Source of the DNA: a virus
Taxonomy: Duplodnaviria > Caudoviricetes
Strand: one strand, 5' to 3'
Length of the DNA stretch: 53,788 nucleotides
Virus record (IMG/VR): IMGVR_UViG_3300027631_000027
Coordinates: 1-53,788 of that record
Part shown: positions 9,843 to 53,481 of the stretch, piece by piece
Layout: every line of letters starts with the position of its first letter
Numbering within the stretch: the stretch's first letter is position 1
Translations under genes and position numbers: made by a program
The notes under the pieces: generated by a model
Told to the model about the DNA's origin: nothing
The model's database searches: none
What the model saw: only the letters and a program-made list of their open reading frames with translations

Positions 9843-12800
9843 TTAAATTGAGATTTGAGAATATCCATCCTCTTTTTTAATTTCTATTAAATTATCTACC
9901 ATATCACGGGCAGTCTCTAAGTGACTTACTATTAATATAAAATCAAAATGCGTTTTAAGTAAATTAAACAGTGTTTGCATAGAATGCATGTGTTCAGCAT
10001 CCAATACCCCAAATCCTTCATCAATTATCATGAAATTTGACTTGGGAAGATTACTTGCGTTCATGAGTGCAATACGAATGGCAAGACTACTGACAAATCG
10101 TTCCATGCCAGAACTGTTCTCCAACGGCCAAATACGATCATAATCATAGGTTAATTTACCATTGATATTTTTCCCATCCACTTCTAATGCCACTGTAAAG
10201 TCTACAATCTGTGAAAGGATTGAGTTAATCTCCGATTCAATATTAGGAATTGCCTTACTCATCAGTTCATATGGAATACCATCTCGACCAATCGCAGTCA
10301 TATACTGATTATATGCTTCGTAGGTAATTTCCAATTCTTCTGCTTCCTTTAATTTATTCATTAATTCTTGCTTCTTTGATTCCAACACACTAATATTACC
10401 ATGTAGTGCCCGAAGTTTTTGTTCAACCGACTGCATCATCTTTTTGTTCGTAGTAATCTTTTCTTGAATTTGTGCAATATCAATATCAATTGCTTGATTG
10501 TGTAGAATATTTTCTTCGTTAGTTTTATAAATAACAATTTCATTCTCAATATTAGGAATAGAAATTTCTATTTTTTCAAGAACTACCTTACAATTTGCTA
10601 ATACAGTTTTTGACTTTTCTACGTCAAACCCACATGATTCAATTTCTTTCTGGGCAACCAATGCTTCCTCATATATTTCCTTATCAGTTTCCAACGGTTT
10701 CATCTTATCAATAATCTGGGTAATGGAATCTTCTTGGATTAACCGTTTTGCGTTTAACTCGTCTAGTTCATTATGTACTGCGTCCAAATCTTCAATAACC
10801 GATGCATTGTTGGTGACACACACATCACAATTTAAGTTATATTTGTAACTTGATAGTTTATTCTTAAATTTTGTTTTTTCATCAATTTTAGTATTCACAA
10901 CACGAAGAGCACTATTTCCCTTTATTAAAATATCATTTAACTTATTCCAGTTAGCTACTGATTCTTTAAGAGCACCCATATCATATTGCTCAAAGTCACT
11001 TAACGCATCAGTTAAATTCATTTCACTATCAGTCAATGCATATTCTGCAATTGCCACATCTTCCTGTGCCTTCTTACGATTTGTTGTTGCATTAGTTAAT
11101 GCCTTAGTTAAATCGACAAGATTGCCGGACGTTGATGGAACAGGTCTTTTTAGTTCTTGTGTAGAAATTAATACATCATCAAGTACTTCCCGACTTTCCT
11201 TGAGTTCCATATGTTCCACTTCGACATGGGAAACTTCTTCTTGTGCTGTAGTCAATTGAGCATGGGTAGATGCAATATTGTCGGTAACTTCTGACTTCTT
11301 AAATCGTTTGAGAACTCCCGTAATTTCCTTTGCTTCATCGTGTGCAGCATCAAACAACTTATCAAAGATATTCAATCCCATAAACTGAATAAGTAAATCT
11401 TTTCGCTCCGAATGGGATTTATCAATGAACAATGCGTTGCTGGTTTGTCCACTCAATGCCGTCATTACAAAGTCTTCATATGACCCAACATAGTTACGAA
11501 TATTTGCATTTGTATCTCGACGGTCTTCTCCATTCAAGGAAACAATACCAGTAGGAGTTACCTTCCAGAATTGTGCATCAACTTTGACATCACCGTTCTT
11601 TTTACGAGCACCATTTCGTTTAATACCATAGACCTCATTATTAATTTCAAAGGTCAATTCACATTCAAACGTATCCTTACGATTATTAATAATATGGTCA
11701 CCCTTAAATGCCCGTGGAGTCTTGTCATATAAACAGAACATCAACGAATCCATAATAGAACTTTTACCACTTGCGTTTGCAGCAAAGATTCCATACAATC
11801 CTTTCATATCACTGAAATTAATTTCGTTGTCTTCTCCATACGAGAACATATTTGAAAACTTAAACTTCAGTGGACGCCAATGAATATTTCTAGATTGGTC
11901 ATCGTGTTGAATTCTTCCGTTGAGGTCAGTATTAATCTTTTGAATTGCTGTTAATACCTCGGCATCCAATGAACTATTGTTTCTGGTCAACCAATCTGTA
12001 ATCAGTGTATGTTGTAATGACACATCTGTCAAATCCATTGCATCATGGGCAACCGTAGTAGACCGATTGATGGTCTTATTGAATCGACTCTTATTGACAC
12101 TGAGTTCAATTATATTATGATTGTTACGAAGCGTGGTAATAATCTTTTTTACTTGGGTATTATCTAAATCACCCGTGAACAGTCGCATGCGAACGTTCTT
12201 CGGCATATGTGACGGATAGGTGATATTTCCATCGGATACTTCTAGTGTTACATATCCGTAATCATTGTGAAGAGGAATAAATTCAAACGTATGTGATTGC
12301 ACATCCCACAAACACCATCCATGATTGTCAAGACTTTCCCCGTGGTTTTGCTGAATGAGGGATGATGCATAGACAATTACTGGATTGCTATCTTGGAGTA
12401 CTTGATGCTTATGAATGTCACCTAACAACACCATATCAAATTCGTCGAATGTGGCTACGTGTACATGTCTATTTGTAATCGTAAATCCCGCATCAGTCGT
12501 TGAACCGTGAACAGGTCCGTGGTATAGTGCAATTCTATGCGAAGAATCACATTCGTCTGCACGTGGCCATTCTGTTGCATCATCAAGAATAGACATCACC
12601 GCAAAGTCGGTGTCTGCAACCGTGACAATAGCAGAGTTCTTAATATAATAAAGATTTGGATGTTGTAAACTATTCACAATTGGAGTAAGACTATCCAATC
12701 TGTTTGTATTGGCAAGATTACAATCGTGATTACCCGCAATTAAAATTGTTGGAGCAATGTCGGCAATACTTGCCAGAAACTTAGAAGTGACTTCGACCAT

Positions 12801-13001
12801 TTCTGGGGACATATCCGTCTTTGCATGCACGATATCTCCTGCCAATACAATGACAAAATTTTTAAGATTCTTTGCACGAATGTCTGTATACAATGTTTCG
12901 AACGCGGTTTCGTATTCTTCATGACGACGAAACAACCGAATGTGAATATCAGCAATGTGAACAATAGATTTTAATTTATTAAATGGAACATTTATTTTCA
13001 T
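9843..13001 (-). CDS. sbcCD: Mre11-Rad50 (SbcD-SbcC, gp47-gp46-like) fusion nuclease/ATPase
   Basis: Phosphoesterase motifs ADIH, GD, GNHD, HG, GDIH; Walker A AANASGKSS; coiled coil with CDVC zinc hook; SSGMERF signature; IIDEGFGVLD Walker B; VSH H-loop. Start moved to ATG 13001 (ATGA overlap with upstream gene). Confidence 0.93.
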   Translation of the reverse strand: MKINVPFNKLKSIVHIADIHIRLFRRHEEYETAFETLYTDIRAKNLKNFVIVLAGDIVHAKTDMSPEMVEVTSKFLASIADIAPTILIAGNHDCNLANTNRLDSLTPIVNSLQHPNLYYIKNSAIVTVADTDFAVMSILDDATEWPRADECDSSHRIALYHGPVHGSTTDAGFTITNRHVHVATFDEFDMVLLGDIHKHQVLQDSNPVIVYASSLIQQNHGESLDNHGWCLWDVQSHTFEFIPLHNDYGYVTLEVSDGNITYPSHMPKNVRMRLFTGDLDNTQVKKIITTLRNNHNIIELSVNKSRFNKTINRSTTVAHDAMDLTDVSLQHTLITDWLTRNNSSLDAEVLTAIQKINTDLNGRIQHDDQSRNIHWRPLKFKFSNMFSYGEDNEINFSDMKGLYGIFAANASGKSSIMDSLMFCLYDKTPRAFKGDHIINNRKDTFECELTFEINNEVYGIKRNGARKKNGDVKVDAQFWKVTPTGIVSLNGEDRRDTNANIRNYVGSYEDFVMTALSGQTSNALFIDKSHSERKDLLIQFMGLNIFDKLFDAAHDEAKEITGVLKRFKKSEVTDNIASTHAQLTTAQEEVSHVEVEHMELKESREVLDDVLISTQELKRPVPSTSGNLVDLTKALTNATTNRKKAQEDVAIAEYALTDSEMNLTDALSDFEQYDMGALKESVANWNKLNDILIKGNSALRVVNTKIDEKTKFKNKLSSYKYNLNCDVCVTNNASVIEDLDAVHNELDELNAKRLIQEDSITQIIDKMKPLETDKEIYEEALVAQKEIESCGFDVEKSKTVLANCKVVLEKIEISIPNIENEIVIYKTNEENILHNQAIDIDIAQIQEKITTNKKMMQSVEQKLRALHGNISVLESKKQELMNKLKEAEELEITYEAYNQYMTAIGRDGIPYELMSKAIPNIESEINSILSQIVDFTVALEVDGKNINGKLTYDYDRIWPLENSSGMERFVSSLAIRIALMNASNLPKSNFMIIDEGFGVLDAEHMHSMQTLFNLLKTHFDFILIVSHLETARDMVDNLIEIKKEDGYSQISI

Positions 13002-13225
13002 AATACCTTCTTTGTAAGTAACCATCCTGCAAACACTCCCATTGAAATACCTTTGGGGTCTAACCAAACTGCATCATAACTTTTACAAAAATCTTTCCAT
13101 GCCATACCAGCCGTTATTGGCGATATCATGTCATTGGGATCTATCAAATCTAACAATTCTTCAATATCAGCAATGTCCACACCAGACCCTTTTGCGATAA
13201 GTTCTATTTCTTCTTTACGTGTCAT
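12998..13225 (-). CDS. hypothetical protein
   Basis: 75 aa, 4-nt overlaps with both neighbours suggest translational coupling. Confidence 0.7.
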   Translation of the reverse strand: MTRKEEIELIAKGSGVDIADIEELLDLIDPNDMISPITAGMAWKDFCKSYDAVWLDPKGISMGVFAGWLLTKKVL

Positions 13226-25496: not shown

Positions 25497-25871
25497 TTAT
25501 ATACTCAACTCAGTAAATTGCGTGTCTATATTTTTAATAACATCAGCGTTATATCGTTCAAAGTAAATAGGTGCATAATATCCCTGTGAGGCGGTTGGTT
25601 CGGTGGTCATACTTGGACCTTGTAATATAGTAGACCCATCAAAATCTAACGGCATTACAATTTTAAAAGGATATACCGTAGAAATTTCCGGTTGTAATTC
25701 TTGTAAAGATTGTGTGGTTTGTATTAAATTAGGAGATAATGTACGTGTATCTAATTCATATATGTCACCCTCTGGGGAGAAATATGAAGAGGATACTATT
25801 ATAATATCTTCGTTATCCTTTTTAAGATTTACCAAAAATTTTGGAATATAAGAATTAAATATATTAATCAT
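25497..25871 (-). CDS. hypothetical protein
   Basis: 124 aa ORF packed in operon. Confidence 0.6.
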   Translation of the reverse strand: MINIFNSYIPKFLVNLKKDNEDIIIVSSSYFSPEGDIYELDTRTLSPNLIQTTQSLQELQPEISTVYPFKIVMPLDFDGSTILQGPSMTTEPTASQGYYAPIYFERYNADVIKNIDTQFTELSI

Positions 25872-26904
25872 CGGAATCTATTTTAAACGTATAATTAAAC
25901 TCTGGGAAGAACACCAATCCACTTGATTTTACTTTCAAATCCAATGTATAATATCGATTTACCTCCAATCCAGACGTATCTAATATAATATAAGAACCTG
26001 ATGCATCGCAATTTATAGCAGAATATTGATCAAACTCATATATTACCGTATCTGCCACTTGGTCACGTATTCTAAAATACGATTCTGATGGTAGGTAGTA
26101 GATGTTTTTATACCGTTGGGTTGCGTTAAATTTTCTGTCTGGATATGGTTCTCTAACTACTAGATATACTTTATCTATTTCTCCTAGAGTATATGCTTCT
26201 TTTATATTCTTGGGAACAATTGTAACATTACTATTTGGAATGGGTTTTAAACTTCCAGTAACGAAGGTTTGATTTACACTAACAATTTCTAATTTTGGAG
26301 CAAATATAGTGTGTGTATTTCCTGAAAAGAACTTAATATTACCCACGTTCGTAGAATCCAGTTCATCGGCGTCTGGAAATTTAATCACCAATCCACGCCA
26401 GGTTGTTGCATTATTTCCAGCAACAACCGGTGCAATTATACTAGTCACATTAATTTTAATATCTTCGATGGGCACGTTTGATATACTGTGTGTAGAGTAT
26501 AGTACCGTCGTATAATCACTTCCTGATGTTGTCCAATTTGTTATGTTAGTAGCTTGTTGCCATGTTACGCCGTCTTCTACATTTTCTACATCTTGATAAA
26601 AATATCCACTACCTTCTACCCAGTTCCGTGATACTGGATACACCAGTAATTGCTGGTATCGGTTAACATTTGTTGCGTTAGCAATTCTAAGATTTAGGTA
26701 ATATACTGAACTAGTGGAGTACTGTTGTGTCGATGGTATATTAAAATCTAATAATATACGAGCTGATCCCGACGCATATTGATTGGGGCCATCTAATGAT
26801 TTTATTATTTTTCCAACTTCAATAATTTCATCAAGACCAGTATTTAGTGTTGGGTATCGTTCATAAATTGTTGCATCTTGTGTTGTTGGTAGGAATGTTC
26901 TCAT
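25864..26904 (-). CDS. DNRLRE-like (carbohydrate-binding-like) virion protein
   Basis: QDATIYERYPTLNTG...RILLDFN...WVEGSG...VTW...GLVIK...PKLEI pattern. Confidence 0.6.
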   Translation of the reverse strand: MRTFLPTTQDATIYERYPTLNTGLDEIIEVGKIIKSLDGPNQYASGSARILLDFNIPSTQQYSTSSVYYLNLRIANATNVNRYQQLLVYPVSRNWVEGSGYFYQDVENVEDGVTWQQATNITNWTTSGSDYTTVLYSTHSISNVPIEDIKINVTSIIAPVVAGNNATTWRGLVIKFPDADELDSTNVGNIKFFSGNTHTIFAPKLEIVSVNQTFVTGSLKPIPNSNVTIVPKNIKEAYTLGEIDKVYLVVREPYPDRKFNATQRYKNIYYLPSESYFRIRDQVADTVIYEFDQYSAINCDASGSYIILDTSGLEVNRYYTLDLKVKSSGLVFFPEFNYTFKIDSDD

Positions 26905-28909: not shown

Positions 28910-29290
28910 CTAAAACGTTAGAATAATAGTGTCTCTGATATTTGGATTCTTCTTTAAACGATATCCCACGTATAATCGAAGTCTATTATTATCCAAATCG
29001 TTTGGTTCTGCATTAAGTTCAAACTGCACAAGTTCTAAAAACGGCATCCATCGTTCTACAGCGTTTACAACCGATAATCGAGCGCCTTCAATATTTTCAG
29101 GAGTCAATTGTTCAAAAAGATAATCATGAATACCACACCCAAATTCAGGTTGGTGTACACGTTCACCTTTTCGTGTAAGTATCAAGTTTAAAAAATTTGA
29201 TTTTACTTGAACTAATGTATCAAAGGATTGTTGAAAATATCCCATGTTGCCAATTTGTATTGGTAAAGTAATACCAATTCCTTGTGCCAT
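28910..29290 (-). CDS. gp25: baseplate wedge subunit gp25/GPW-like
   Basis: NLILTRKGERVHQPEFGCGIHDYLFE...VERWMP. Confidence 0.9.
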   Translation of the reverse strand: MAQGIGITLPIQIGNMGYFQQSFDTLVQVKSNFLNLILTRKGERVHQPEFGCGIHDYLFEQLTPENIEGARLSVVNAVERWMPFLELVQFELNAEPNDLDNNRLRLYVGYRLKKNPNIRDTIILTF

Positions 29291-34740: not shown

Positions 34741-35633
34741 AAACTCCAATATTTAAATAGGGCAAGTTCTTTGGCTTTGGCTTCTAGGTCAAAGTCGAGG
34801 GTCATACCAAAGTCGTCAATTTTATTGAACACATAATCTGCATGCGCACGAGGATTACCCGTGACATTCTCATTGAGATTTTTGGATTCACTATAATGAA
34901 ACAATGGAACTATATTTTCTGGCCATGTACCGGCGGCCAATTCAGCAGCATCTTGTGTAGATAGTCCGTCTGGATGAAATTGATGATGAAAGTAGTCAAA
35001 CGTAATAGGAATATTGAGTGTGGCATACAAGTACGTAAACAATTGTATAACCGAAAACGACGATGCCTTGTCATCATTTTCTACTACAAGCCGTGCTTTG
35101 CAATTTGGAGACAACCGATTATAAGCGGCAATCCAACGGGACGCCACTTCTTCGGAGAAATTCATTCCAACGTGAATATTTAACGCATTATACGGAGTTG
35201 CCGCAAGACCCATAAGATCAAATACGGTAGAATGAAGTTCAAGATCTTTGATCGAATTCTCAACAACAGCAGGCTTAGTTGAAGCAAGTTTTACAAAGTG
35301 GTCAGGGTGAGCGGTAATACGTTGTCCATATGTTGCAGCTAACTTACCAGCAGTACTAAGAGTATCTACAATCTTGTCATAATCGGGAAGGTCCGATACA
35401 TTGTATGCAGACCCCCACGGAAAGATACCAGACCCCATGCGAAACACTTTGACGTTGTTAATATGATTCCATTCAATAATCTTAATAAGATCACGTGCAT
35501 TTGCTAAAGCTAATTCAGATGCATATGGCAATCCTTTTTGGTTAAATGTACGTTGAATCATACCACGGCCAGTGGTAATTTTCTTTTTATTTAATTGTGT
35601 ATTAATACAGCAATAACCAATTTGATGGGGCAT
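34737..35633 (-). CDS. uvsE: UV damage endonuclease UvsE/UVDE
   Basis: IGYCC, FRMGS..FPW, RITAHPDHF, NIHVG, LVVENDD, FDYFHH, HYSES, RAHADY, DLEAKAKELAL. Confidence 0.95.
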   Translation of the reverse strand: MPHQIGYCCINTQLNKKKITTGRGMIQRTFNQKGLPYASELALANARDLIKIIEWNHINNVKVFRMGSGIFPWGSAYNVSDLPDYDKIVDTLSTAGKLAATYGQRITAHPDHFVKLASTKPAVVENSIKDLELHSTVFDLMGLAATPYNALNIHVGMNFSEEVASRWIAAYNRLSPNCKARLVVENDDKASSFSVIQLFTYLYATLNIPITFDYFHHQFHPDGLSTQDAAELAAGTWPENIVPLFHYSESKNLNENVTGNPRAHADYVFNKIDDFGMTLDFDLEAKAKELALFKYWSL

Positions 35634-35659
35634 GTAACCTCACTTGATATGAATACCTA

Positions 35660-35688
35660 AATATAACACATTTGGTAAGAAATGTCAA
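35660..35688 (-). promoter_or_regulatory. sigma70-type promoter of uvsE
   Basis: TTGACA-17 nt-TATATT with TGn extension. Confidence 0.75.
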
Positions 35689-35697
35689 GGGATACTA

Positions 35698-36612
35698 TTA
35701 TCCAGAATGCTTACCGTGTTGCCATGCAGGTATCTTGGACACCTCCACAGTGGTCGTAGGAACCTCTGTGGGAGACTCCACATATACTTTGAAGGGTTCG
35801 TCCGTAGTATCTACCGTAGTCGTTTCTAACGGTACTACCGTTGGTTGATTCTTTAATAAAAAATTAATTGCAATTACTAGGGCCACGGCCAACGGGTCAA
35901 ATACTAATACAATTACTAACGTAAACCATTTTACTACAGTGTCCAGTGGTACTCCAAATGTTTTTGCAATGTATACAAACGTACCAATGTCACCATTTGT
36001 TTCAATTTCTACTTGTTTCGATGTAGAAATAGCTGATAAACTATCTTTGGTTGATGATAAAACGGTGATTTCACGTTGTAATTCGACGACATTTTTATCA
36101 GCTTGTGCTAATTGTGCTTGTGTAGATCGAATCGACGAGGTGTTTCCTGTTGTACTTTTTCCGATAAGATTGTCCAATCGAGTTTCTTGTTGTGTGCGCA
36201 ATGAAATTAATTGGTTTAACCGAGTATTTTTTCGGGTAATGTCTTGTTCTACGGAAGAAACCTTTGATGCGGTGGTTGATATGTCTGCGGACAATTGTAG
36301 TGGGGTTGCAGCAACCTTTGCATAGGCAGATGACAGATACCCATAGATGCCGGCAGACGTTATAACCATCAATATACATGATGCAACCGATAAATAATAT
36401 TTTAATGCCTTTGGAATATCCGTCCAGTACTGATATAAGAATGAAATACTAACAATCTTACCCAACTCCAATGCCGATGCCATGATTGCAACACTTAATG
36501 CGGCACCTGCAAATAGTTTGGCAATTCCGGTTACAGAAAACACTGCGGCGCACAGTGCCACAAATGTTGCCGTCAATGACGTAACCGTAATTAATGATGT
36601 GCGTGTATTCAT
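35698..36612 (-). CDS. multi-TM membrane protein with coiled coil
   Basis: Three N-terminal TM helices (ALELGK, TSAGIYGYLS), coiled coil, C-terminal TM VFDPLAVAL. Confidence 0.75.
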   Translation of the reverse strand: MNTRTSLITVTSLTATFVALCAAVFSVTGIAKLFAGAALSVAIMASALELGKIVSISFLYQYWTDIPKALKYYLSVASCILMVITSAGIYGYLSSAYAKVAATPLQLSADISTTASKVSSVEQDITRKNTRLNQLISLRTQQETRLDNLIGKSTTGNTSSIRSTQAQLAQADKNVVELQREITVLSSTKDSLSAISTSKQVEIETNGDIGTFVYIAKTFGVPLDTVVKWFTLVIVLVFDPLAVALVIAINFLLKNQPTVVPLETTTVDTTDEPFKVYVESPTEVPTTTVEVSKIPAWQHGKHSG

Positions 36613-36625
36613 AAGATATTTTGAG

Positions 36626-36664
36626 AAAACGCGATTGAGGATTATATAACCTCAACCGCGTTTC
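36626..36664 (-). terminator. intrinsic terminator downstream of hsp20 and micropeptide
   Basis: GAAACGCGGTTGAGG-loop-CCTCAATCGCGTTTT; G.U pair favours minus strand. Confidence 0.65.
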
Positions 36665-36714
36665 ATTCTCCAATGTAGAGAGTTTTAGATGTAACGTAAC
36701 TGTTAGATCACCTC

Positions 36715-36783
36715 CTAGATGATAGTTACGTTAGTGGGAGTAATAATACAATTGCCAGTACACAATATACAGTTTCCACACAT
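36715..36783 (-). CDS. 22-aa Cys-rich micropeptide MCGNCILCTGNCIITPTNVTII
   Basis: ATG at 36783 with GGAGG SD at 36790-36794; CxxCxxCxxxC spacing. Confidence 0.5.
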   Translation of the reverse strand: MCGNCILCTGNCIITPTNVTII

Positions 36784-36808
36784 ACTAAACCTCCATTTAA
36801 TAATGGTT

Positions 36809-37318
36809 TTATTTGATCGTAACCGTATTAACTTTACTTTGTGAGACTTGTACCTTTCGTGGAATAACCAGTTTGAGTAACCCATCTTTAAAAGTAGCAT
36901 CAATTTTTTCTGTATCCAACTGGTCATCTAATTTAAATGACCGACTAAAAGAACTACGTTTAAGTTCCCGAAGAATATATACTTTGTTTGTTGAATAATC
37001 ATCAACGTCTGACGTTGCTGCTTTTCCTACAATACTAAGAACATTATCCTCCACCTGAACTGAGATATTATCTTTTGCATATCCAGCAATTTCTGCTTCT
37101 AATTCAATCTTATCATTGAATGATGTAACATTGACTTTTGGATATGATGTTTTACTAAATGGATCAATTCCAAATGTCTTATAGATATCGGGAAAATTTC
37201 CTCGGAACGCATCATCAAATAACTTGTCGAACGAAGTCAGCAAATTATCTCTGTTGAATTCCATTTCTTTGGCAATTACTGTTGCCGGCACTGCTTGCAT
37301 AGTCCACTTTCTTGTCAT
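36809..37318 (-). CDS. hsp20: small heat shock protein Hsp20
   Basis: YPKVNV, AEIAGYAKDNISV, RELKRSSFSRSF, IDATFKDGLLKLVIP; AGGAG SD. Confidence 0.95.
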   Translation of the reverse strand: MTRKWTMQAVPATVIAKEMEFNRDNLLTSFDKLFDDAFRGNFPDIYKTFGIDPFSKTSYPKVNVTSFNDKIELEAEIAGYAKDNISVQVEDNVLSIVGKAATSDVDDYSTNKVYILRELKRSSFSRSFKLDDQLDTEKIDATFKDGLLKLVIPRKVQVSQSKVNTVTIK

Positions 37319-37406
37319 AATATTTCTCCTTGTTATGTTTCCATCTCCACTATTGGATGATGGTGTGTAGGAACTCCGAAGACATCCCTACAAAAATAAG
37401 TATAAC

Positions 37407-37447
37407 AAACGGACAAAATACAACGATTTGTTGTACTTTATCCGTTT
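37407..37447 (-). terminator. long hairpin, probable terminator after HD gene
   Basis: 18-bp stem with two G.U pairs on minus strand. Confidence 0.55.
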
Positions 37448-37453
37448 AGATTA

Positions 37454-38092
37454 TTAGAATCTACCTTTGTCACCTTCAACACGACATGCAATATGATCTG
37501 CCCAATGGATAATATATGGGAGACTAGTTTTCATTGGTTGCTTCATGGAGTAATTGACTAGATATCCTTTATTACCATCATCATATATACCATCCGACAA
37601 CTTAATACCTAGCCATTCATTCTGAGTAATTTCAACGCCATATTTCTGTAGCAAGAACAACCCACGTTCAGGTACCTTGAAATATTGAAGGTTCTCGTTG
37701 TGTGTATATAGTTCGCCACGTTTACGATGCCAATCAGAATCTTGATTTACATAATATGGACCTTCGTCCGGATGTCCTAACTTTCCAAGGTCATGATGGA
37801 GTGCAGCAAAAATTAATTCTTGTTTGGTAAATGTAATGTCACCTTCCATACTCTTATAGAGTGCCGCAACCTTCAGTGCAGTTTCCGTGACCCGAAGTAC
37901 ATGATCTAGATATCCCCCAGGAAATGCATTGTGATAATGTGTCCGAGCCGACGCCGGTGCTTGTGCCAACTCATCGGTGAATGGGATATACATTTCCTTA
38001 AGTTTTTCCGCACGTGGGTCTGCCTCAATGTACTCCATAAACTTTGTATAATCCTGCTGAATCTTTTCTTCGGTGTTTGTGATAGTAAACAT
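37454..38092 (-). CDS. HD-domain phosphohydrolase
   Basis: PAS...HNAFPGGYLDHVLRV, ALHHDLGK, IHWADH. Confidence 0.88.
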   Translation of the reverse strand: MFTITNTEEKIQQDYTKFMEYIEADPRAEKLKEMYIPFTDELAQAPASARTHYHNAFPGGYLDHVLRVTETALKVAALYKSMEGDITFTKQELIFAALHHDLGKLGHPDEGPYYVNQDSDWHRKRGELYTHNENLQYFKVPERGLFLLQKYGVEITQNEWLGIKLSDGIYDDGNKGYLVNYSMKQPMKTSLPYIIHWADHIACRVEGDKGRF

Positions 38093-38110
38093 AATAACCT
38101 TTAGTTGATG

Positions 38111-38632
38111 TTAAATTAAGTATTCAATTTTTCGTTGATTGCGTTTCATCCACAATTCAAACAATGTAGGAATTGTAGGTTTTTTCTGTAGTACCAATGT
38201 GGTATCTGCCAAATCATGGTACGCCTTCTTATTATTACACGTTGAACAAGCAGTTACTAAATTATCCCACGTACTTTTACCACCTCGACATTCCGGAACT
38301 ATGTGATCTCTGGTTAGAAACTCATATGATTTAAGTTCTATTTTAGACCGACTACAGTATTGACAAGTATTATTATCACGAAGAAATAAATTACGTTGAC
38401 TTAATGCCGCGGGAGTTTTGTATATTTTTCTACCCCGAACAAACATTTTCAATGCTACCATCACTGGTAATTTAAACGTGACTTTTGGCGATCTTACCAA
38501 TAAATACGGATGTTCTTCAACGACGACGGCCTTTCCCTGTAAGATCATGACCATTGCTCGTTGGGATGTAACAACATCTATTGGTTCATACGTAGAATTT
38601 AGAACAACGCATCTGGTTGTTTCAAACTCCAT
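38111..38632 (-). CDS. HNH endonuclease
   Basis: VLNSTYEP, RNLFLRD..CQYC, LTRDHIVP..GG.STWDNLVTACSTCNNKK. Confidence 0.92.
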   Translation of the reverse strand: MEFETTRCVVLNSTYEPIDVVTSQRAMVMILQGKAVVVEEHPYLLVRSPKVTFKLPVMVALKMFVRGRKIYKTPAALSQRNLFLRDNNTCQYCSRSKIELKSYEFLTRDHIVPECRGGKSTWDNLVTACSTCNNKKAYHDLADTTLVLQKKPTIPTLFELWMKRNQRKIEYLI

Positions 38633-39595: not shown

Positions 39596-39630
39596 AGTAT
39601 CTCCAAACATTATTAACACTAACCCTTCAG

Positions 39631-39975
39631 TGGACCCGGCGGGAGTCGAACCCGCGTCCGAGATTGCTTACTATTAAGTTTTTATGTACGTAGTCATTTT
39701 ATTGTACTACACCGCGTTTAAACAAATGACGAACCCACGCAGCTTTGAGTTGAAGAATTCTTTACCGAATATCAACTCATTCTTCGGTAATATATCATAT
39801 GCGATTACAAATTACCTTATATGAATCAGTAACTTGTCAAGCAGCGGATCTAAAAGATCAGGCTGCTAAGGCTAAGTTTTGGTTGCCGTTTGAAATTGTT
39901 GGTCTGTTTTACCAGTTTTACCAAGCTGGGTACAAAGCTTAATCATCCACACCCCGTCGAAACCAGTGCGGGCCC
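39631..39975 (-). ncRNA. ssrA: tmRNA; tag (A)GNQNLALAA at 39858-39887
   Basis: 5' GGGCCCGCACTGGTTTCGAC; 3' GACGCGGGTTCGACTCCCGCCGGGTCCA; G3.U70 Ala identity pair; 345 nt; tag ends LAA-stop; CCA not encoded. Confidence 0.95.
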
Positions 39976-42644: not shown

Positions 42645-42673
42645 ATTATACCTTGTAAGGTGTTATGTGTCAA
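42645..42673 (-). promoter_or_regulatory. consensus sigma70 promoter
   Basis: TTGACA-17 nt-TATAAT. Confidence 0.85.
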
Positions 42674-43004
42674 GGGGTGGGTCCAACTTAATTGCAGTCC
42701 ACTCCGTACTTTGTTTGTATTCGCGCAATTCATCACTCAAACTAATTAATTCCAATTTTAATTCATTAGTCAACTGTACTTGGTCGAAATACTTTAATTT
42801 CCAGTTGTCCAGTTCTGTTTGAATAAGTCGTAGTTCTGTCTTCACAGTATCCAATTCTTCACGCAACTCTTTTCTAAGAGCCACATGAGTTTCTAGGTCA
42901 TTGCCGTTAGATTCTACGAATTTATTAAACAGTTTAACTATTCCCGCAACGACCATACCGGACACTGCTGCATACATAGCTGTTTGAAATTCTTGCGGAA
43001 TCAT
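42663..43004 (-). CDS. single-TM coiled-coil protein (holin-like topology)
   Basis: N-terminal TM then LRKELREELDTVK coiled coil. Confidence 0.6.
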   Translation of the reverse strand: MIPQEFQTAMYAAVSGMVVAGIVKLFNKFVESNGNDLETHVALRKELREELDTVKTELRLIQTELDNWKLKYFDQVQLTNELKLELISLSDELREYKQSTEWTAIKLDPPLDT

Positions 43005-46845: not shown

Positions 46846-46928
46846 GGACGAGTGGCTGAGCGGTTGAAGGCACGGGTCTGCAAAACCCTTGGAGAAATCC
46901 CACATCGGTTCAAATCCGATCTCGTCCT
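46846..46928 (+). tRNA. trnC: tRNA-Cys(GCA) with long variable arm
   Basis: GGACGAG/CTCGTCC acceptor, U73, loop CTGCAAA, T arm ATCGG-TTCAAAT-CCGAT. Confidence 0.9.
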
Positions 46929-46945
46929 TATTACAGGAGATAGTT

Positions 46946-47332
46946 ATGAAAAATCAGATATTTGTATTTGGAAGTAATTTAGCAGGGCGGCATGCATGCC
47001 GCGGCGGCATGCATGCCGCCCTTACCGCATATAGAACCCATGGCGCTATTTACGGACAAGGATATGGAATGCAAGGTAACAGTTTTGCTATTCCAACGAA
47101 GGACGAAAATTTAAATACATTACCAGTGAATAAGATTGCAAAATATGTAGATAAATTTATTAATTATGCAGTATTAAACCCAGATTTAATGTTTCAAGTT
47201 ACAAGAATTGGTTGTGGGTTGGCTGGATATGAAGACAGTGATATTGCTCCACTATTTATAAACGCACCCAGTAATTGTATTCTTCCTGTTGGGTGGCGAA
47301 ATTTTAAACCACACTCACTTGAGAAATTATGA
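46946..47332 (+). CDS. conserved phage protein (IFVFGSN...YAIPT family, macro-domain-like)
   Basis: IFVFGSNLAGRH, G.QGNSFAIPTK, F.VTRIGCGLAG; start moved to ATG 46946 (AGGAG SD) clear of tRNA. Confidence 0.8.
   Translation: MKNQIFVFGSNLAGRHACRGGMHAALTAYRTHGAIYGQGYGMQGNSFAIPTKDENLNTLPVNKIAKYVDKFINYAVLNPDLMFQVTRIGCGLAGYEDSDIAPLFINAPSNCILPVGWRNFKPHSLEKL
46985..47021. repeat. 37-bp nested palindrome inside CDS
   Basis: GGGCGGCATGCATGCCGC-G-GCGGCATGCATGCCGCCC. Confidence 0.95.
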
Positions 47333-50037
47333 GATTTTTATTGCTTGCTGTATTGAGTTTGTTACTTCCGATTGAGATACTTCAATCACAGTCTGGACAA
47401 ATTGTTGGTAAGATTGTTGACGGTGCAACTGGACAAGGTATTGTAAACGCAGGAATTCAGGTTGTTGGTACCTCAACGGGAACATTATCGGGAATTGATG
47501 GAAGATACCGTGTCAAGGTACCCGCCGGAACAACTACACTACAAGTTCGCATTATTGGATATAGTCCAAAAACAGTTACGGGTATTATGGTTACCGAAAA
47601 CCAGACTATTGAACAAGACATTAGTATGGTATCGGCAAATATTCAATTGTCAGCAGTAAGTGTAACTGCCACAAAAGAAAAAGGAACTATCAATGATGCC
47701 CTAAATCAACAGAAAAATTCCACAAATGTAGTGAATGCAATTACCGCAGAACAAATTGCACGAAGTCCAGATGGTGATGCAGCACAAGCAGCACAACGAA
47801 TTAGCGGTGTTACCGTCCAAGATGGTAAGTATATCCAAGTTCGTGGATTAAGTGAACGGTATACAACGGCATCGTTGAATGGAGTTCGAATGGCAAGTCC
47901 AGAACCAGAGCGTAAAGTCGTTCCGCTTGACTTATTCCCATCAAGTTTACTACAAGATATCAGCACCAGCAAAACATTTACTCCAGACCAACCAGGAGAT
48001 TTTGCCGGTGCAAATGTAAACATACGAACAAAAGAATTTCCTGCTCGTAGACAAGTAAATTACTCCATGTCGATAGGGTCAAACAGTCGGGTATTCAACA
48101 GAGACTTACCATTTGCTCCCCGTGCGGGAGGAGAATTAGTTGGAGTCGTAAATTCTACTAGAGATATTCCATCGGAATTGAGTAATGTGAGTTTTTTAAG
48201 TAATACCACACAACAACAGTTCAATACTGCAATACGTCAACAACGAAATGTCTGGTATCCAACATATCGAAGTGGTGCGTTAAACGGGTCATTTGGTGCA
48301 TCTACTGGCGGAAATCAAATTTTTGGTAAACGAATTGGATATGTGCTGAGTGGGAATTATGGATATTCCGAAGAAACTCGTGCCGACGAACAATATGCGG
48401 TGGGAAATCAAGGAGCAAACAACACCGTCGTACCGCTCACGACTATCAATGGCGCAACGGGACGGGTTGGAGTTCAATGGGGAGGAATTGCAAATTTCTC
48501 AACCATGATTAAACAAAGTTCTAGGGTATCTTTGAACACCACCATTACTCGGAGTGCCGATAATGAAGCACGAGTGGACGGTGGATATGATGAAAATTTG
48601 GCAGATAGTATTAGTCGTACTACATTGCGGTATGTTGAACGCGGTGTCCTTGCTATTACTGGACAAGGTGAACATCAATTGTCATCTCGTAATAAGTCAT
48701 CGTGGTCGTTAACCTACGGAAATACAACCCGCAACGAACCAGACAGGTCTGATTTGGTATATGTTCGAAATCCGATGGGTCAGTATAATTTACTTGGGTC
48801 GTTGGACGGTGCCCGGCGATTGTATTTTAACTTACATGAAACCAATTATGTTGGTCAATTAGACCATACAATAAATGTAGGAGATATAGCATCACAGAAT
48901 GTAATTAAGACGGGTGTATATCTTAGAAAAACTAATCGATTGACCAATGCTCCTATTTATGCATTTATTAGTCGAGCAAATGAAAGTGTTACTACACAAT
49001 CTGCCGATGTAATTTTTGGTAACTCACAAACCTGTCTAACATGCAATCAAGTAAATATTCAACCGATTGGACAAGCAGGATCATATATCGCATCCGACGA
49101 AAATTATGCGGGATATGTAATGTCTGAGTGGAAGATGTCAGATAAAATTCGTATGATTGTAGGTTCACGGATTGAATCTGCTGATATCAAGGTTAGTACA
49201 TCTACACAAGGTGGGTTTACAGCAGATGCACATTTACAAAATGTAGATGTATTACCATCCTTGTTAGTGAATACTAAGTTGTCTGAAACACAAAATTTAC
49301 GATTTGCATTTTCACAAACCGTATCCCGTCCCGAATACCGAGAACTTGCACCAGTAACATTTAGAGATGTATTGGGTGGAGTAAGTGTAACGGGTAATAG
49401 TAAACTGCAACGTGCCCGTGTGAATAACATTGATGTGCGTTATGAAATTTTTCCTACTTCATATGAAATTTTTAGTATTGGAGTATTTTCTAAAAAATTC
49501 AATCGTCCAATTGAACGAGTAGAATCTGCAACGTCTGGAGCATATCAAGCACTATATCAAAATGCAATGTCGGCAACGAACTATGGTATTGAGCTGGAAG
49601 GTAGAAAACAATTATGGACAAGTCCTATTACTGTATTTAGTAATGTAACCGTCATGAAATCGTCGGTACAATTAGATACCACTCAGGGATTAACGGTTAC
49701 CGACACAAAACGGGCATTGGTTGGACAAGCACCATATGTATTAAATTCCGGAATTACCTATTCGTCATTGGATGGAAGAACGAACGCAACAATATTATAT
49801 AACGTTGTCGGGGACCGCATTTTTGCTGCGGGAGTATTGCCATTACCAAACATCATTGAAAAGTCTCGGAAAATGATTGATGTAACTATCAAAACTCCTA
49901 TTAAGCAGAACACATCAATTCGTGTAGATGTTAGAAATCTATTGGATTCACGATATACCTTTACACAAGGAACATTAGAACGTGAAGGATATAATGTGGG
50001 AAGAATGGTGTCGGCGGGAATTTCAATCAATAAATAA
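47329..50037 (+). CDS. TonB-dependent outer-membrane receptor
   Basis: Signal peptide, carboxypeptidase-regulatory-like N domain, plug (RISGVTV, VRGLSERY, VPLDLFP), barrel motifs SRPEYREL, GNSKL, YGIELE, VRNLLD. Confidence 0.95.
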   Translation: MRFLLLAVLSLLLPIEILQSQSGQIVGKIVDGATGQGIVNAGIQVVGTSTGTLSGIDGRYRVKVPAGTTTLQVRIIGYSPKTVTGIMVTENQTIEQDISMVSANIQLSAVSVTATKEKGTINDALNQQKNSTNVVNAITAEQIARSPDGDAAQAAQRISGVTVQDGKYIQVRGLSERYTTASLNGVRMASPEPERKVVPLDLFPSSLLQDISTSKTFTPDQPGDFAGANVNIRTKEFPARRQVNYSMSIGSNSRVFNRDLPFAPRAGGELVGVVNSTRDIPSELSNVSFLSNTTQQQFNTAIRQQRNVWYPTYRSGALNGSFGASTGGNQIFGKRIGYVLSGNYGYSEETRADEQYAVGNQGANNTVVPLTTINGATGRVGVQWGGIANFSTMIKQSSRVSLNTTITRSADNEARVDGGYDENLADSISRTTLRYVERGVLAITGQGEHQLSSRNKSSWSLTYGNTTRNEPDRSDLVYVRNPMGQYNLLGSLDGARRLYFNLHETNYVGQLDHTINVGDIASQNVIKTGVYLRKTNRLTNAPIYAFISRANESVTTQSADVIFGNSQTCLTCNQVNIQPIGQAGSYIASDENYAGYVMSEWKMSDKIRMIVGSRIESADIKVSTSTQGGFTADAHLQNVDVLPSLLVNTKLSETQNLRFAFSQTVSRPEYRELAPVTFRDVLGGVSVTGNSKLQRARVNNIDVRYEIFPTSYEIFSIGVFSKKFNRPIERVESATSGAYQALYQNAMSATNYGIELEGRKQLWTSPITVFSNVTVMKSSVQLDTTQGLTVTDTKRALVGQAPYVLNSGITYSSLDGRTNATILYNVVGDRIFAAGVLPLPNIIEKSRKMIDVTIKTPIKQNTSIRVDVRNLLDSRYTFTQGTLEREGYNVGRMVSAGISINK

Positions 50038-53120: not shown

Positions 53121-53193
53121 GTCTTCATGGTGAAATTGGCTATCACACCGAACTCCAAATCCGGTTTTCTAGGTTCAAATCCTAGTGGAGGCG
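53121..53193 (+). tRNA. trnW: tRNA-Trp(CCA)
   Basis: GTCTTCA/TGGAGGC acceptor, loop CTCCAAA, G73. Confidence 0.85.
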
Positions 53194-53208
53194 TAAAAAT
53201 TGTTGTAC

Positions 53209-53295
53209 GGGAGTGCTGCTCTGATGGCGGAAGGGCATTGGACTGTAAATCCAACACTTAAAGAAACGCAGAAAGTTCGAATCTTTCCACTCCCA
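53209..53295 (+). tRNA. trnY: tRNA-Tyr(GTA)
   Basis: GGGAGTG/CACTCCC acceptor, TTGGA-CTGTAAA-TCCAA, long variable region, A73. Confidence 0.88.
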
Positions 53296-53298
53296 TAT

Positions 53299-53372
53299 CC
53301 GCGTTAGGTGTAAGTGGTGTGCATGTCTGTCTGATAAACAGAAGGTACCAGGTTCAACTCCTGGAACGCGGA
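53299..53372 (+). tRNA. trnI: tRNA-Ile(GAT)
   Basis: CCGCGTT/AACGCGG acceptor, TCTGT-CTGATAA-ACAGA, CCAGG-TTCAACT-CCTGG. Confidence 0.88.
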
Positions 53373-53378
53373 CTTATT

Positions 53379-53450
53379 GCCTTGATGGTGTAATGGATAG
53401 CACAATAGTCTTCGGAACTATTTGTGGGGGTTCGAATCCCTCTCGGGGCA
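53379..53450 (+). tRNA. trnR: tRNA-Arg(TCG)
   Basis: GCCTTGA/TCGGGGC acceptor, ATAGT-CTTCGGA-ACTAT, A20 in D loop. Confidence 0.88.
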
Positions 53451-53481
53451 TGTTTAATTAGTTGTTTGGTTATATTTATAT

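What the first reader, a model, noticed from the sequence alone, without database searches (positions are those of the whole stretch)
36692..36733. Hairpin carrying an 11-nt match to the 16S rRNA 3' end with no start codon to serve
Seen: plus strand TAACGTAACTGTTA-GATCACCTCCTAGA-TGATAGTTACGTTA is a 14-bp stem (two G.U) with GATCACCTCCT (36706-36716) in the loop. The minus strand reads AGGAGGTGATC, an extended SD overlapping the micropeptide TAG, with no ATG/GTG/TTG at usable spacing. Known: GAUCACCUCCU is the conserved anti-SD tail. Inference: either an antisense sRNA presenting anti-SD to block SD-led mRNAs (a type I toxin-antitoxin-like pair with the peptide, whose SD is GGAGG), or a 30S-trapping element exposed when ribosomes reach the peptide stop. 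Together with the peptide and terminator this is a compact candidate regulatory system.
Basis: partly seen in the sequence, partly recalled or inferred. Interest (0 to 1): 0.7.

Follow-up and report, generated by a model that had tools for sequence, protein, structure and literature searches.

The report
Start-less ribosome-binding hairpin in a phage
A large phage, probably of Bacteroidota, carries a conserved small RNA module: a cysteine-rich mini-gene followed at once by a hairpin holding a very long match to the ribosome's mRNA-docking tail, with no gene to start.

Summary
The functional strand is the minus strand, not the plus strand.

The window is a fragment of a large virus record whose genes mostly lack Shine-Dalgarno (SD) sequences. 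Downstream of hsp20 lies a compact module:
- a strong SD;
- a 22-codon cysteine-rich ORF;
- a hairpin whose apical part holds a 10-12 nt complement of the 16S rRNA 3' tail ("SD2"), beginning -1 to +4 nt after the stop codon;
- a GGAG box;
- an intrinsic-terminator-like hairpin;
- a 304-aa membrane-protein gene.

I found 17 distinct versions in public viral contigs. In them:
- The ORF is kept in 15 of 15 ORF-bearing versions.
- The hairpin stem shows compensatory changes.
- SD2 is invariant except for an A/G change that keeps pairing as G.U.
- No usable start codon follows SD2.

SD2 is single-copy in three related phage records. It resembles the exceptionally long SDs of Bacteroidota rpsU (bS21) genes. 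Some relatives encode bS21.

Best reading: a start-less extended SD that works by pairing with the 16S tail and tethers ribosomes. What that achieves is inferred, not shown. The antisense anti-SD sRNA / type I toxin reading is not supported. No Rfam family or paper found describes it.

The parts
37391..37398 (-). Promoter-like -7 box upstream of hsp20. It lies just after the terminator-like hairpin of the preceding HD-domain gene (37406-37448).
   Evidence: Pattern match, terminator-like site, sequence read. The same stretch lies directly upstream of the module in L005-L007, where hsp20 is absent. That this motif is the Bacteroidota sigma-A -7 consensus is recalled, not tested. The motif is not enriched in the window: 76 matches against 69 expected.
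36809..37318 (-). hsp20 gene, the usual upstream neighbour of the module.
   Evidence: Pfam HSP20 E 5e-18; PHROG Hsp20.
36790..36794 (-). SD1: GGAGG, 6 nt before the ATG of the micro-ORF.
   Evidence: Read. It is the only GGAGG among the 51 ORF starts of the window examined. An SD-like purine word precedes the ATG in all 15 ORF-bearing versions.
36715..36783 (-). Cysteine-rich micro-ORF, 22 codons with 4 Cys. Its last codons form the 5' arm of the hairpin.
   Evidence: Kept open in 15 of 15 distinct ORF-bearing versions. These are 15-22 codons long with 4-6 Cys each. Cys codons vary synonymously (TGT 54, TGC 18). All three stop codons are used, and length differences are whole codons.
36692..36733 (-). 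Hairpin 1. The conserved stem pairs 36724-36731 with 36694-36701.
   Evidence: In 15 distinct sequences, p3-p10 are paired in 120 of 120 cells. Two-sided changes: p5 is G-C 10, A-U 4, G.U 1; p10 is U-A 12, C-G 3; p11 is G-C 9, U-A 1. For p3-p11, 130 of 135 cells pair, against 25-44 of 135 when the partner is slid by 1-2. RNAalifold finds the same helix.
36706..36716 (-). SD2: a start-less extended SD, complementary to the 16S rRNA 3' tail. It begins inside the TAG stop codon.
   Evidence: The 10-nt core is invariant in 17 distinct versions apart from A/G at its third base. Predicted duplex with a 16S tail is -20.1 to -25.3 kcal/mol and 12-14 bp in 14 of 14 versions tested. It occurs once per record in three related virus records of 74-167 kb. 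No usable start codon follows.
36665..36672 (-). GGAG box, a few nt before the terminator stem.
   Evidence: A GGAG is present at this place in all 17 versions. It is not a repeated motif in the window: the 8-mer occurs 3 times on both strands. No conserved frame starts at it (read).
36623..36664 (-). Intrinsic-terminator-like hairpin: 15-bp stem, 9-nt loop, then a T-run. It ends about 12 nt before the next ATG.
   Evidence: RNAfold. RNAalifold finds 9 terminator pairs, 8 of which show two-sided changes in the 15 sequences.
35698..36612 (-). 304-aa predicted membrane protein, the usual downstream gene.
   Evidence: No Pfam or PHROG family. Relatives are viral hypothetical proteins. The module lies upstream of it in 25 of 36 related loci that had upstream sequence.

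Best explanation
This is a conserved phage RNA module read on the minus strand. It is transcribed with hsp20, or directly from the same promoter region where hsp20 is missing.

A well-initiated, cysteine-rich micro-ORF runs into a hairpin. The stop codon is followed at once by SD2, a start-less, unusually long SD. SD2 most likely works by base-pairing with the single-stranded 3' tail of 16S rRNA (about nt 1529/30-1540). In that way it tethers a small subunit or a just-terminated ribosome on the RNA without starting a protein.

The phage's genes, and probably its Bacteroidota host, largely do without SDs. So only ribosomes whose tail is free could be caught: those that have just terminated on the micro-ORF, or those short of bS21. 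This is as described for host rpsU.

The parked ribosome would keep hairpin 1 open. It would thereby set the fate of the RNA just upstream of a leaky terminator and the membrane-protein gene: its stability, or read-through.

Shown: the anatomy, its conservation, the stem covariation, the complementarity to the 16S tail, and the lack of a start codon.

Inferred: binding of the 16S tail, which ribosomes bind, and every downstream consequence.
For: 1. The 10-nt core is invariant in 17 distinct versions, while the loop flanks, the ORF and the terminator stems diverge.
2. Its only variation, A or G at one base, keeps pairing with the tail as G.U. All 14 versions tested give 12-14 bp and -20 to -25 kcal/mol.
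3. The core and its complement occur only once in the window and once in each of three related records. So there is no other perfect partner in the phage DNA held.
4. The stop codon lies -1 to +4 nt before the core in 15 of 15 versions.
5. No ATG, GTG, TTG, CTG or ATH lies 3-15 nt after the core in 11 of 17 versions. The other six have only ATA or ATC at 6-10 nt, or an ATG at 15 nt, with unconserved frames of 3-16 codons.
6. The background is SD-poor. Of 51 ORF starts in the window, only the micro-ORF has GGAGG.
7. Of 30 Bacteroidota rpsU leaders, 14 carry the same GG(A/G)GGUG word, six of them in the GGGGG form. In 24 of 30 the predicted pairing is -14 kcal/mol or stronger. McNutt 2023 (PMC9976891; abstract, section 32 and passages read) reports 9-13 bp SDs as the mark of rpsU, translated by ribosomes lacking bS21.
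8. A bS21 gene is present in 4 of 5 related phage records, two of which carry the module.
9. The minus-strand fold is more stable than shuffles (z -5.1) and more so than the plus strand (z -3.2).
Against: - No binding or expression experiment exists.
- SD2 is predicted to be partly or almost wholly paired within the hairpin. Mean unpaired probability is 0.02-0.70, and 0.32 in the window.
- If the host is a Bacteroidota, its ribosomes normally hide the tail (Jha 2021, PMC7797042; passages read), so capture might be rare.
- The host is not established. The nearest cultured relatives infect Microcystis and Flavobacterium at 30-37% protein identity. The TonB-receptor search gave only weak hits.
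- Two versions (L026/27, L028) keep SD2, the GGAG box and the terminator. They have only a 3-codon frame without an SD, so coupling to termination is not universal.
- In L066/L071 the module is followed by a convergent gene, so it does not always precede the membrane-protein gene.
- The link to bS21 is loose. bS21 was found in 2 of 9 module-bearing records searched, and not in the 89%-complete one.
- Within the window alone the match is not statistically rare.
Confidence: 0.45

Rival explanations
1. Trans-acting decoy. The RNA, or a processed piece running from hairpin 1 to the terminator, mimics the extended SD of host rpsU. It soaks up 30S subunits that lack bS21, or pulls the 16S tail out of its pocket. 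This would damp the host's bS21 feedback and favour the phage's own bS21.
For: - SD2 resembles host rpsU SDs, including the GGGGG form.
- Pairing is as strong as or stronger than the rpsU range reported in PMC9976891.
- Relatives encode bS21.
- The variant without a real ORF keeps SD2, the GGAG box and the terminator, which is an sRNA-like architecture.
- In L071 the module ends a transcription unit with no gene after it.
- McNutt 2023's discussion (passage read) speculates that phages may act on bS21 exchange.
Against: - A free decoy has no need for the tight stop-to-SD2 spacing kept in 15 of 15 versions.
- SD2 pairs with the hinge side of the tail (GGAUC) and not with the 3'-terminal U-rich end used by rpsU leaders.
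- bS21 was not found in the 89%-complete module-bearing record.
- There is one copy per genome and no evidence of abundance. The RNA-library contig shows presence only.
- The host is unproven.
Confidence: 0.18
2. Cysteine-sensing leader-peptide attenuator. Ribosome progress over the Cys-rich ORF decides whether hairpin 1 and then the terminator form, and so controls read-through into the membrane-protein gene. SD2 only helps to hold or pause the ribosome.
For: - A short SD-led ORF with 20-33% Cys codons sits directly upstream of a terminator hairpin and a gene with no room for its own promoter.
- The T-runs are short, suggesting leaky termination.
- A phage tRNA-Cys is encoded in the window.
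Against: - RNAalifold finds two independent hairpins and no conserved alternative (antiterminator) pairing.
- The terminator arms differ completely between lineages while the hairpin-1 arms are nearly constant, which makes a conserved competing helix unlikely.
- The module exists without a downstream gene and without the ORF (L026-L028).
- This reading does not explain 10 invariant bases complementary to 16S.
Confidence: 0.12
3. A hairpin recognised by something other than the ribosome, such as a phage or host RNA-binding protein, an RNase processing or stability site, or a DNA-level site. On this reading the likeness to an SD is incidental.
For: - The stem core is conserved in sequence beyond what pairing needs.
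- SD2 is partly buried in lineage-specific apical helices.
- It is a single-copy site per genome.
Against: - The only variable base of the core changes in the one way that preserves pairing to the 16S tail.
- The complementarity runs 12-14 bp in every version.
- A second SD (SD1) and a GGAG box accompany it in an SD-poor genome.
- No RegB-type GGAG nuclease was found in 5 related records. That search had no positive control.
Confidence: 0.15
4. One reading: a plus-strand antisense sRNA that displays an anti-SD mimic and blocks SD-led mRNAs, forming a type I toxin-antitoxin pair with the peptide.
For: - In this window the plus-strand stem is longer (14 pairs) and leaves the 16S-like word in an open loop.
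- The plus-strand fold is also more stable than shuffles (z -3.2).
Against: - The extra plus-strand pairs are not conserved: p12 and p13 pair in 6 and 8 of 15 sequences.
- The G.U pairs of the minus-strand stem become mismatches on the plus strand.
- The GGGGG variants (7 of 17 versions) would put a mismatch into an anti-SD mimic.
- No T-run follows the terminator hairpin on the plus strand in the other loci (read).
- The peptides are not hydrophobic.
- Few phage mRNAs have an SD to block.
Confidence: 0.05

Closest known systems
STAB-SD of Bacillus thuringiensis cry3A mRNA (Agaisse and Lereclus 1996, as described in PMC4113751, section 3.2, passage read)
   Same: An SD-like sequence that does not direct initiation. 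It can pair with the 3' end of 16S rRNA and is thought to act by parking a 30S subunit on the RNA.
   Different: STAB-SD lies near the 5' end of a 5' UTR in a Gram-positive host. It protects against the 5'-3' exonuclease RNase J1. The phage element lies directly after the stop codon of a translated micro-ORF, inside a hairpin, and upstream of a terminator. It is in an SD-poor phage, and its complementarity is much longer (12-14 bp). A stabilising effect has not been tested.
Extended SD of rpsU (bS21) in Bacteroidota, with autoregulation through ribosomes lacking bS21 (PMC9976891, PMC7797042)
   Same: Exceptionally long complementarity to the 16S tail in an otherwise SD-poor setting. The core word is the same, including the G.U-tolerant GGGGG form. 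The predicted energy range is similar.
   Different: rpsU SDs are followed by a start codon and the bS21 ORF, and they extend towards the 3'-terminal U-rich end of the tail. SD2 has no start codon and extends towards the hinge (GGAUC) side. It is phage-borne, and it follows an ORF rather than preceding one.
Leader-peptide transcription attenuators (trp, his, thr type; recalled from textbook knowledge)
   Same: A short SD-led ORF enriched in one amino acid, followed by hairpins and a terminator in front of a gene.
   Different: No conserved alternative antiterminator pairing was found. The module occurs without a downstream gene. Classical leaders carry no start-less SD after the stop codon.
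Termination-reinitiation (translational coupling) sites in polycistronic mRNAs (recalled)
   Same: An SD placed at the end of one ORF so that the terminating ribosome is retained.
   Different: There is no start codon to reinitiate on in any lineage.

Membership tests
Ordinary ribosome-binding site (SD plus start codon) | Complementarity to the anti-SD of 16S rRNA | tested here: met
   12-14 bp and -20 to -25 kcal/mol in 14 of 14 versions. It is the strongest such site in the window.
Ordinary ribosome-binding site (SD plus start codon) | A start codon about 4-12 nt downstream that opens a conserved frame | tested here: not met
   None in 11 of 17 versions. The other six have only ATA, ATC or a distant ATG, with unconserved frames of 3-16 codons.
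STAB-SD type mRNA stabiliser | An SD-like word that pairs with 16S and does not direct initiation | tested here: met
STAB-SD type mRNA stabiliser | Position near the 5' end of an untranslated leader | tested here: not met
   It lies immediately 3' of a conserved translated micro-ORF, and in most loci behind hsp20.
STAB-SD type mRNA stabiliser | Stabilises the RNA against a 5'-3' exonuclease | not testable with these tools
   Needs RNA half-life measurements. Whether the host has RNase J was not examined.
Bacteroidota rpsU-type extended SD | 9 or more consecutive pairs with the 16S tail, far stronger than other sites of the genome | tested here: met
   The threshold is taken from PMC9976891, section 32. 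My energies come from ViennaRNA duplexfold, not from their program.
Bacteroidota rpsU-type extended SD | Precedes the bS21 coding sequence | tested here: not met
   No bS21 in the window. In relatives the bS21 gene is elsewhere and has a shorter SD-like leader. The core occurs only in the module.
Leader-peptide attenuator | Short translated ORF rich in a sensed amino acid, upstream of a terminator | tested here: met
   15-22 codons with 4-6 Cys, and a terminator hairpin with covariation.
Leader-peptide attenuator | Conserved mutually exclusive antiterminator and terminator pairing | tested here: inconclusive
   RNAalifold returns only two separate hairpins. Alternative structures were not searched exhaustively.
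Type I toxin-antitoxin | Small hydrophobic membrane-active toxin peptide | tested here: not met
   The peptides are Cys-, Asn-, Thr- and Gly-rich with no hydrophobic span.
Type I toxin-antitoxin | Conserved antisense RNA gene on the opposite strand | tested here: not met
   The stem wobble pairs and the terminator T-run favour the ORF strand. No antisense promoter or terminator is conserved. Transcription itself could not be tested.
Any Rfam family | Match at or near the gathering score | tested here: not met
   The gathering scan of the window finds only tmRNA and tRNAs. The permissive scan of 36560-36860 gives only chance miRNA and snoRNA hits with E above 1.

The most novel reading that the evidence does not exclude
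The module is a phage-made mimic of the host rpsU translation-initiation signal, with the start codon left out. It is made early from a host-type promoter. It captures 30S subunits whose 16S tail is free (those lacking bS21), or pries the tail out of the bS21/bS18/bS6 pocket. This would blunt the host's bS21 feedback loop and open ribosomes to the phage's own bS21. The SD-led Cys-rich micro-ORF would serve as the entry lane that delivers such ribosomes to the trap. It would be the first RNA known to target the anti-SD tail in order to reprogram ribosome composition.
Probability: 0.15. Interest if true: 0.9.

Novelty: new variant of a known kind. Interest (0 to 1): 0.62.

Why it matters
Bacteroidota ribosomes hide their anti-SD tail. 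The only well-studied use of long SDs there is bS21 autoregulation. Many aquatic phages of these hosts carry their own bS21, and how it takes over ribosomes is an open question.

A conserved, start-less, very long SD in such a phage lineage, welded to the stop codon of a well-initiated mini-gene, gives a concrete and cheap test object. With existing Flavobacterium johnsoniae tools one can ask:
- Does it bind 30S subunits?
- Which 30S subunits does it bind?
- What does binding do to rpsU translation, or to the neighbouring genes?

Even if it proves to be only a cis-acting ribosome anchor, it would extend the STAB-SD idea to phages and to an SD-poor phylum.

Tried and rejected
- Megablast of 35600-38200 against cultured phage records: no match.
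- Rfam at gathering and at permissive thresholds: nothing relevant.
- Host inference from the TonB-dependent-receptor-like gene: only two weak hits, an Ignavibacteriales MAG at 34% and an Alphaproteobacteria MAG at 31%. Not decisive.
- Distant homologues of the 304-aa gene in cultured phages (Microcystis Mel-JY01, Flavobacterium immuto, an uncultured 484-kb phage) have short upstream spacers. I did not look further for the module there.
- A scan for a version of the module whose core would match the other Bacteroidota 16S tail (GGAAC type): 6 stretches, none a module. So there is no co-variation test between core and host tail.
- Public RNA runs: two runs with small shares. One RNA-library contig of 380 nt, with no differences, covers 36670-37049, which is the 3' part of hsp20, the micro-ORF and hairpin 1. 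Contigs give no strand, ends or level, and DNA carry-over cannot be excluded. Parts without cover say nothing.
- The -7 box motif is not enriched in the window: 76 against 69 expected.
- The GGAG-box 8-mer is not a repeated signal.
- RegB-type nuclease: not found in 5 related records, and the search had no positive control.
- ESM Atlas on the 304-aa protein: only viral hypothetical clusters.
- MAFFT split the 5' arm in alignment A3, so I did not use the count of structure pairs. I tallied pairs from end-anchored arms instead.
- Considered and dropped by reading the sequences: T4 gene-60-type bypassing (no matching take-off and landing codons with a continuing frame); a frameshift at the stop (all frames close within a few codons); a split RBS for the 304-aa gene (about 95 nt away, and that gene is absent in L071).
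- Literature: three full-text searches found no description of a start-less extended SD in a phage or of this module. The search terms were bS21/SD/Bacteroidota/phage, anti-SD/small RNA/sequester/30S/phage, and STAB-SD. Supplements were not available, including the SD tables of PMC9976891 and the gene tables of PMC9723584, and they might bear on this.

Full report
WHAT THE WINDOW IS

The window is a 53.8-kb linear virus record, estimated 28% complete. It carries:
- tail-fibre-like and SbcCD-like genes;
- a tmRNA gene and five tRNA genes;
- hsp20, UvdE, an HD-domain protein and an HNH endonuclease;
- a TonB-dependent-receptor-like gene.

Nearly all genes from 544 to 43679 lie on the minus strand. 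Megablast finds no close cultured relative. At the protein level the nearest named phages infect Microcystis and Flavobacterium, at 30-37% identity.

THE OBSERVATION

The inverted repeat at 36692-36733 and the 11-nt identity to the 16S 3' end at 36706-36716 are as described.

Read on the gene strand, the region has the following order:
1. hsp20 (36809-37318).
2. A GGAGG at 36790-36794.
3. A 22-codon ORF with four Cys (36715-36783).
4. Its TAG stop, overlapping the SD-like word SD2 (36706-36716).
5. The 3' arm of the hairpin.
6. A GGAG box (36665-36672).
7. A 15-bp hairpin followed by a T-run (36623-36664).
8. Twelve nt later, the ATG of a 304-aa predicted membrane protein (35698-36612).

Within this one window the match to 16S is not statistically striking. 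It is the best tail complement in the window, but by a small margin.

CONSERVATION

A search with the 304-aa protein returned 37 related viral loci. One had no upstream sequence. Of the other 36:
- 22 carry the full module upstream;
- 3 carry a variant;
- 11 carry nothing of the kind. These comprise L019/L020 (69% identical, whose contigs carry the module elsewhere, behind hsp20), L029 (87% identical over a partial match), and the eight more distant homologues at 37-42% identity.

Two pattern scans of the viral collection added further versions.
- The first returned 39 stretches. Sixteen were unrelated in-gene matches. The rest were modules, including new ones in L066/L071 and L084.
- The second left the stem free. 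It returned 33 stretches. Nine were unrelated. New modules were found in L104, L108 and L110.

In all I have 15 distinct ORF-bearing versions and 2 distinct variant versions.

Between the versions the ORF sequence, the loop flanks and the terminator arms have changed thoroughly. The shared parts are therefore under selection.

THE MICRO-ORF

- It is open in 15 of 15 versions and is 15-22 codons long.
- It always begins Met-Cys and has 4-6 Cys.
- Cys codons flip synonymously (TGT 54, TGC 18).
- All three stop codons occur, and length differences are whole codons.
- An SD-like word sits at normal spacing before the ATG.

In the window this is the only GGAGG among 51 ORF starts. Most starts have no SD at all. 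I take the ORF to be translated. Its product is a Cys-rich peptide of unknown role.

HAIRPIN 1

With the arms anchored at the ends, positions p3-p10 pair in 120 of 120 cells across the 15 sequences. Two-sided compensatory changes are seen at three positions:
- p5: G-C 10, A-U 4, and a G.U intermediate 1.
- p10: U-A 12, C-G 3.
- p11: G-C 9, U-A 1.

For p3-p11, 130 of 135 cells pair. Sliding the partner by 1-2 positions drops this to 25-44 of 135. RNAalifold recovers this helix and the terminator and nothing else. Ten of its 20 pairs show two-sided changes.

Several single changes are G.U on the minus strand and would be A.C on the plus strand.

SD2

- The 10-nt core is the same in all 17 versions, apart from A or G at its third base. 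The G form occurs in 7 of the 17.
- The A-to-G change keeps pairing with the 16S tail as G.U. Every one of the 14 versions tested gives 12-14 consecutive pairs and -20.1 to -25.3 kcal/mol with a GGAUCACC-type tail.
- That tail type is real in the candidate host phylum. Of 301 Bacteroidota-phylum genomes sampled, 110 gave a readable 16S end. Of those listed, 27 genomes have the GGAAC form and the rest, about three quarters, have the GGAUC form.
- The core and its complement occur once in the window. They occur once in each of three related records of 74, 146 and 167 kb, and not at all in two more distant records without the module. The phage DNA held therefore offers no other perfect pairing partner.
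- The stop codon ends -1 to +4 nt before the core in 15 of 15 versions.
- No start codon, even a near-cognate one, lies 3-15 nt downstream in 11 of 17 versions. The other six offer only ATA or ATC, or an ATG at 15 nt, with unconserved short frames.

The core is not freely exposed. Its predicted mean unpaired probability is 0.02-0.70. The pairing partners differ by lineage: in the window clade they are the last ORF codons, elsewhere a downstream pyrimidine run, and in the variant a downstream stretch.

CONTEXT OF THE MODULE

The module is portable.
- In L005-L007 and L021 the upstream gene is the HD-domain gene rather than hsp20. In L005-L007 the module follows the same promoter-like stretch that precedes hsp20 in the window.
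- In L066/L071 it follows hsp20 but is faced by a convergent gene, so its terminator ends the unit there.
- In L026-L028 only a 3-codon frame without an SD remains, yet SD2, the GGAG box and the terminator are kept.

LINK TO bS21 BIOLOGY

The published background, with what I read of each paper:
- Jha 2021 (PMC7797042; passages read): Bacteroidota largely lack SDs because bS21, bS18 and bS6 sequester the 16S tail.
- McNutt 2023 (PMC9976891; abstract, section 32 and passages read): rpsU is the exception, with 9-13 bp SDs read by ribosomes lacking bS21.
- Chen 2022 (PMC9723584; abstract and passages read): freshwater myophages of up to 331 kb encode bS21 and are predicted to infect Bacteroidetes.

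What I found here:
- A Ribosomal_S21 gene is present in 4 of 5 related virus records. Two of them carry the module.
- It was not found in the window, nor in five further module-bearing fragments that are 24-32% complete, nor in the 89%-complete record G001. That makes 2 of 9 module-bearing records, most of them too incomplete to count.
- Three of the four phage bS21 genes have their own shorter SD-like leaders.
- I took 30 rpsU loci from 41 Bacteroidota-phylum genomes. Fourteen leaders carry the same GG(A/G)GGUG word as SD2, six of them in the GGGGG form. In 24 of 30 the predicted pairing with the tail is -14 kcal/mol or stronger. The tail used was that of one genome, L099, not each genome's own, and my start-codon picks there were rough.

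SD2 thus looks like an rpsU-type SD, with two differences. It has no start codon. It extends towards the hinge side of the tail rather than towards the U-rich 3' end.

INTERPRETATION

The best-supported statement is that SD2 is kept because it pairs with the 16S tail. The evidence is the invariance of the core, the G.U-compatible variation, the absence of any other partner, and the likeness to rpsU SDs. I put about 0.6 on this in total, across the cis and trans versions.

The welded stop codon argues that, in most lineages, the ribosome concerned is the one leaving the micro-ORF. That makes a cis-acting post-termination tether my first choice (0.45). Its likely effect is on the RNA's stability, or on read-through of the leaky terminator into the membrane-protein gene.

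A trans-acting rpsU-mimic decoy is the bolder alternative (0.15-0.18).

The other readings each explain fewer of the conserved features:
- a pure Cys-sensing attenuator;
- a non-ribosomal ligand for the hairpin;
- the plus-strand anti-SD sRNA.

EXPRESSION

One metatranscriptome-library contig, identical over 380 nt, spans 36670-37049. This is the 3' part of hsp20 through hairpin 1. It shows presence in an RNA library only. It gives no strand, ends or abundance.

KNOWN RELATIVES AND NOVELTY

Rfam has nothing. Three full-text searches found no description. Supplements could not be read.

The nearest concepts are:
- STAB-SD (PMC4113751, passage read);
- the rpsU extended SD;
- leader-peptide attenuators;
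- termination-reinitiation sites.

The module fails at least one defining feature of each. I rate it a new variant of a known kind: a start-less SD that binds ribosomes. It is conserved and testable, but its function is unproven.

Noticed in passing
window 39628-39975 (-): A phage-borne tmRNA gene (Rfam 123.6 bits). ARAGORN predicts an unusual tag peptide that does not end in the usual Ala-Ala.
   Followed up: no
window 46846-46928 and 53121-53451 (+): Five tRNA genes: Cys, Trp, Tyr, Ile and Arg. The tRNA-Cys is notable beside a micro-ORF that is 18-33% Cys codons.
   Followed up: no
window 47329-50037 (+): A 902-aa phage gene with CarboxypepD_reg and TonB-dependent-receptor Plug domains. This is a SusC-like outer-membrane receptor architecture that is unusual in a phage. 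The closest genome hits are weak: Ignavibacteriales 34%, Alphaproteobacteria 31%.
   Followed up: partly
window 36715-36783 (-) and homologues in L002-L110: The peptide itself, 15-22 aa with 4-6 Cys in C-x-C and C-x-x-C spacing, looks like a minimal metal-binding or thiol-rich peptide. No family search is possible at this length.
   Followed up: partly
L095, L097, L098 (bS21 genes of related phage records): Three of the four phage bS21 genes have SD-like purine leaders in otherwise SD-poor genomes. This echoes host rpsU autoregulation.
   Followed up: partly
window gene starts, e.g. 25864-26904, 28910-29290, 42663-43004, 36809-37318 (-): Many genes have a weak GAGA(A/T)A word 8-12 nt before the ATG instead of a canonical SD. 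The GGAG box of the module resembles it.
   Followed up: no
window 9843-13067 (-): A single 1074-aa frame that matches both the SbcD-like and the SbcC-like PHROGs, so it appears to be a fused nuclease. The best relatives are an uncultured 484-kb phage and Microcystis phage Mel-JY01, at about 36-37% identity over 97% of the length.
   Followed up: partly
window 37406-37448 (-) and L005-L007 upstream region: The terminator-like hairpin of the HD-domain gene and the promoter-like stretch after it are conserved. In L005-L007 they abut the module directly, as if hsp20 had been deleted there or inserted elsewhere.
   Followed up: partly
loop flanks of hairpin 1 in L008-L084: Short UAAC or CUAAC words recur on both sides of SD2 inside the loop, and the GUAAC/GUUAC stem core is conserved in sequence beyond what pairing needs. 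This is unexplained.
   Followed up: no
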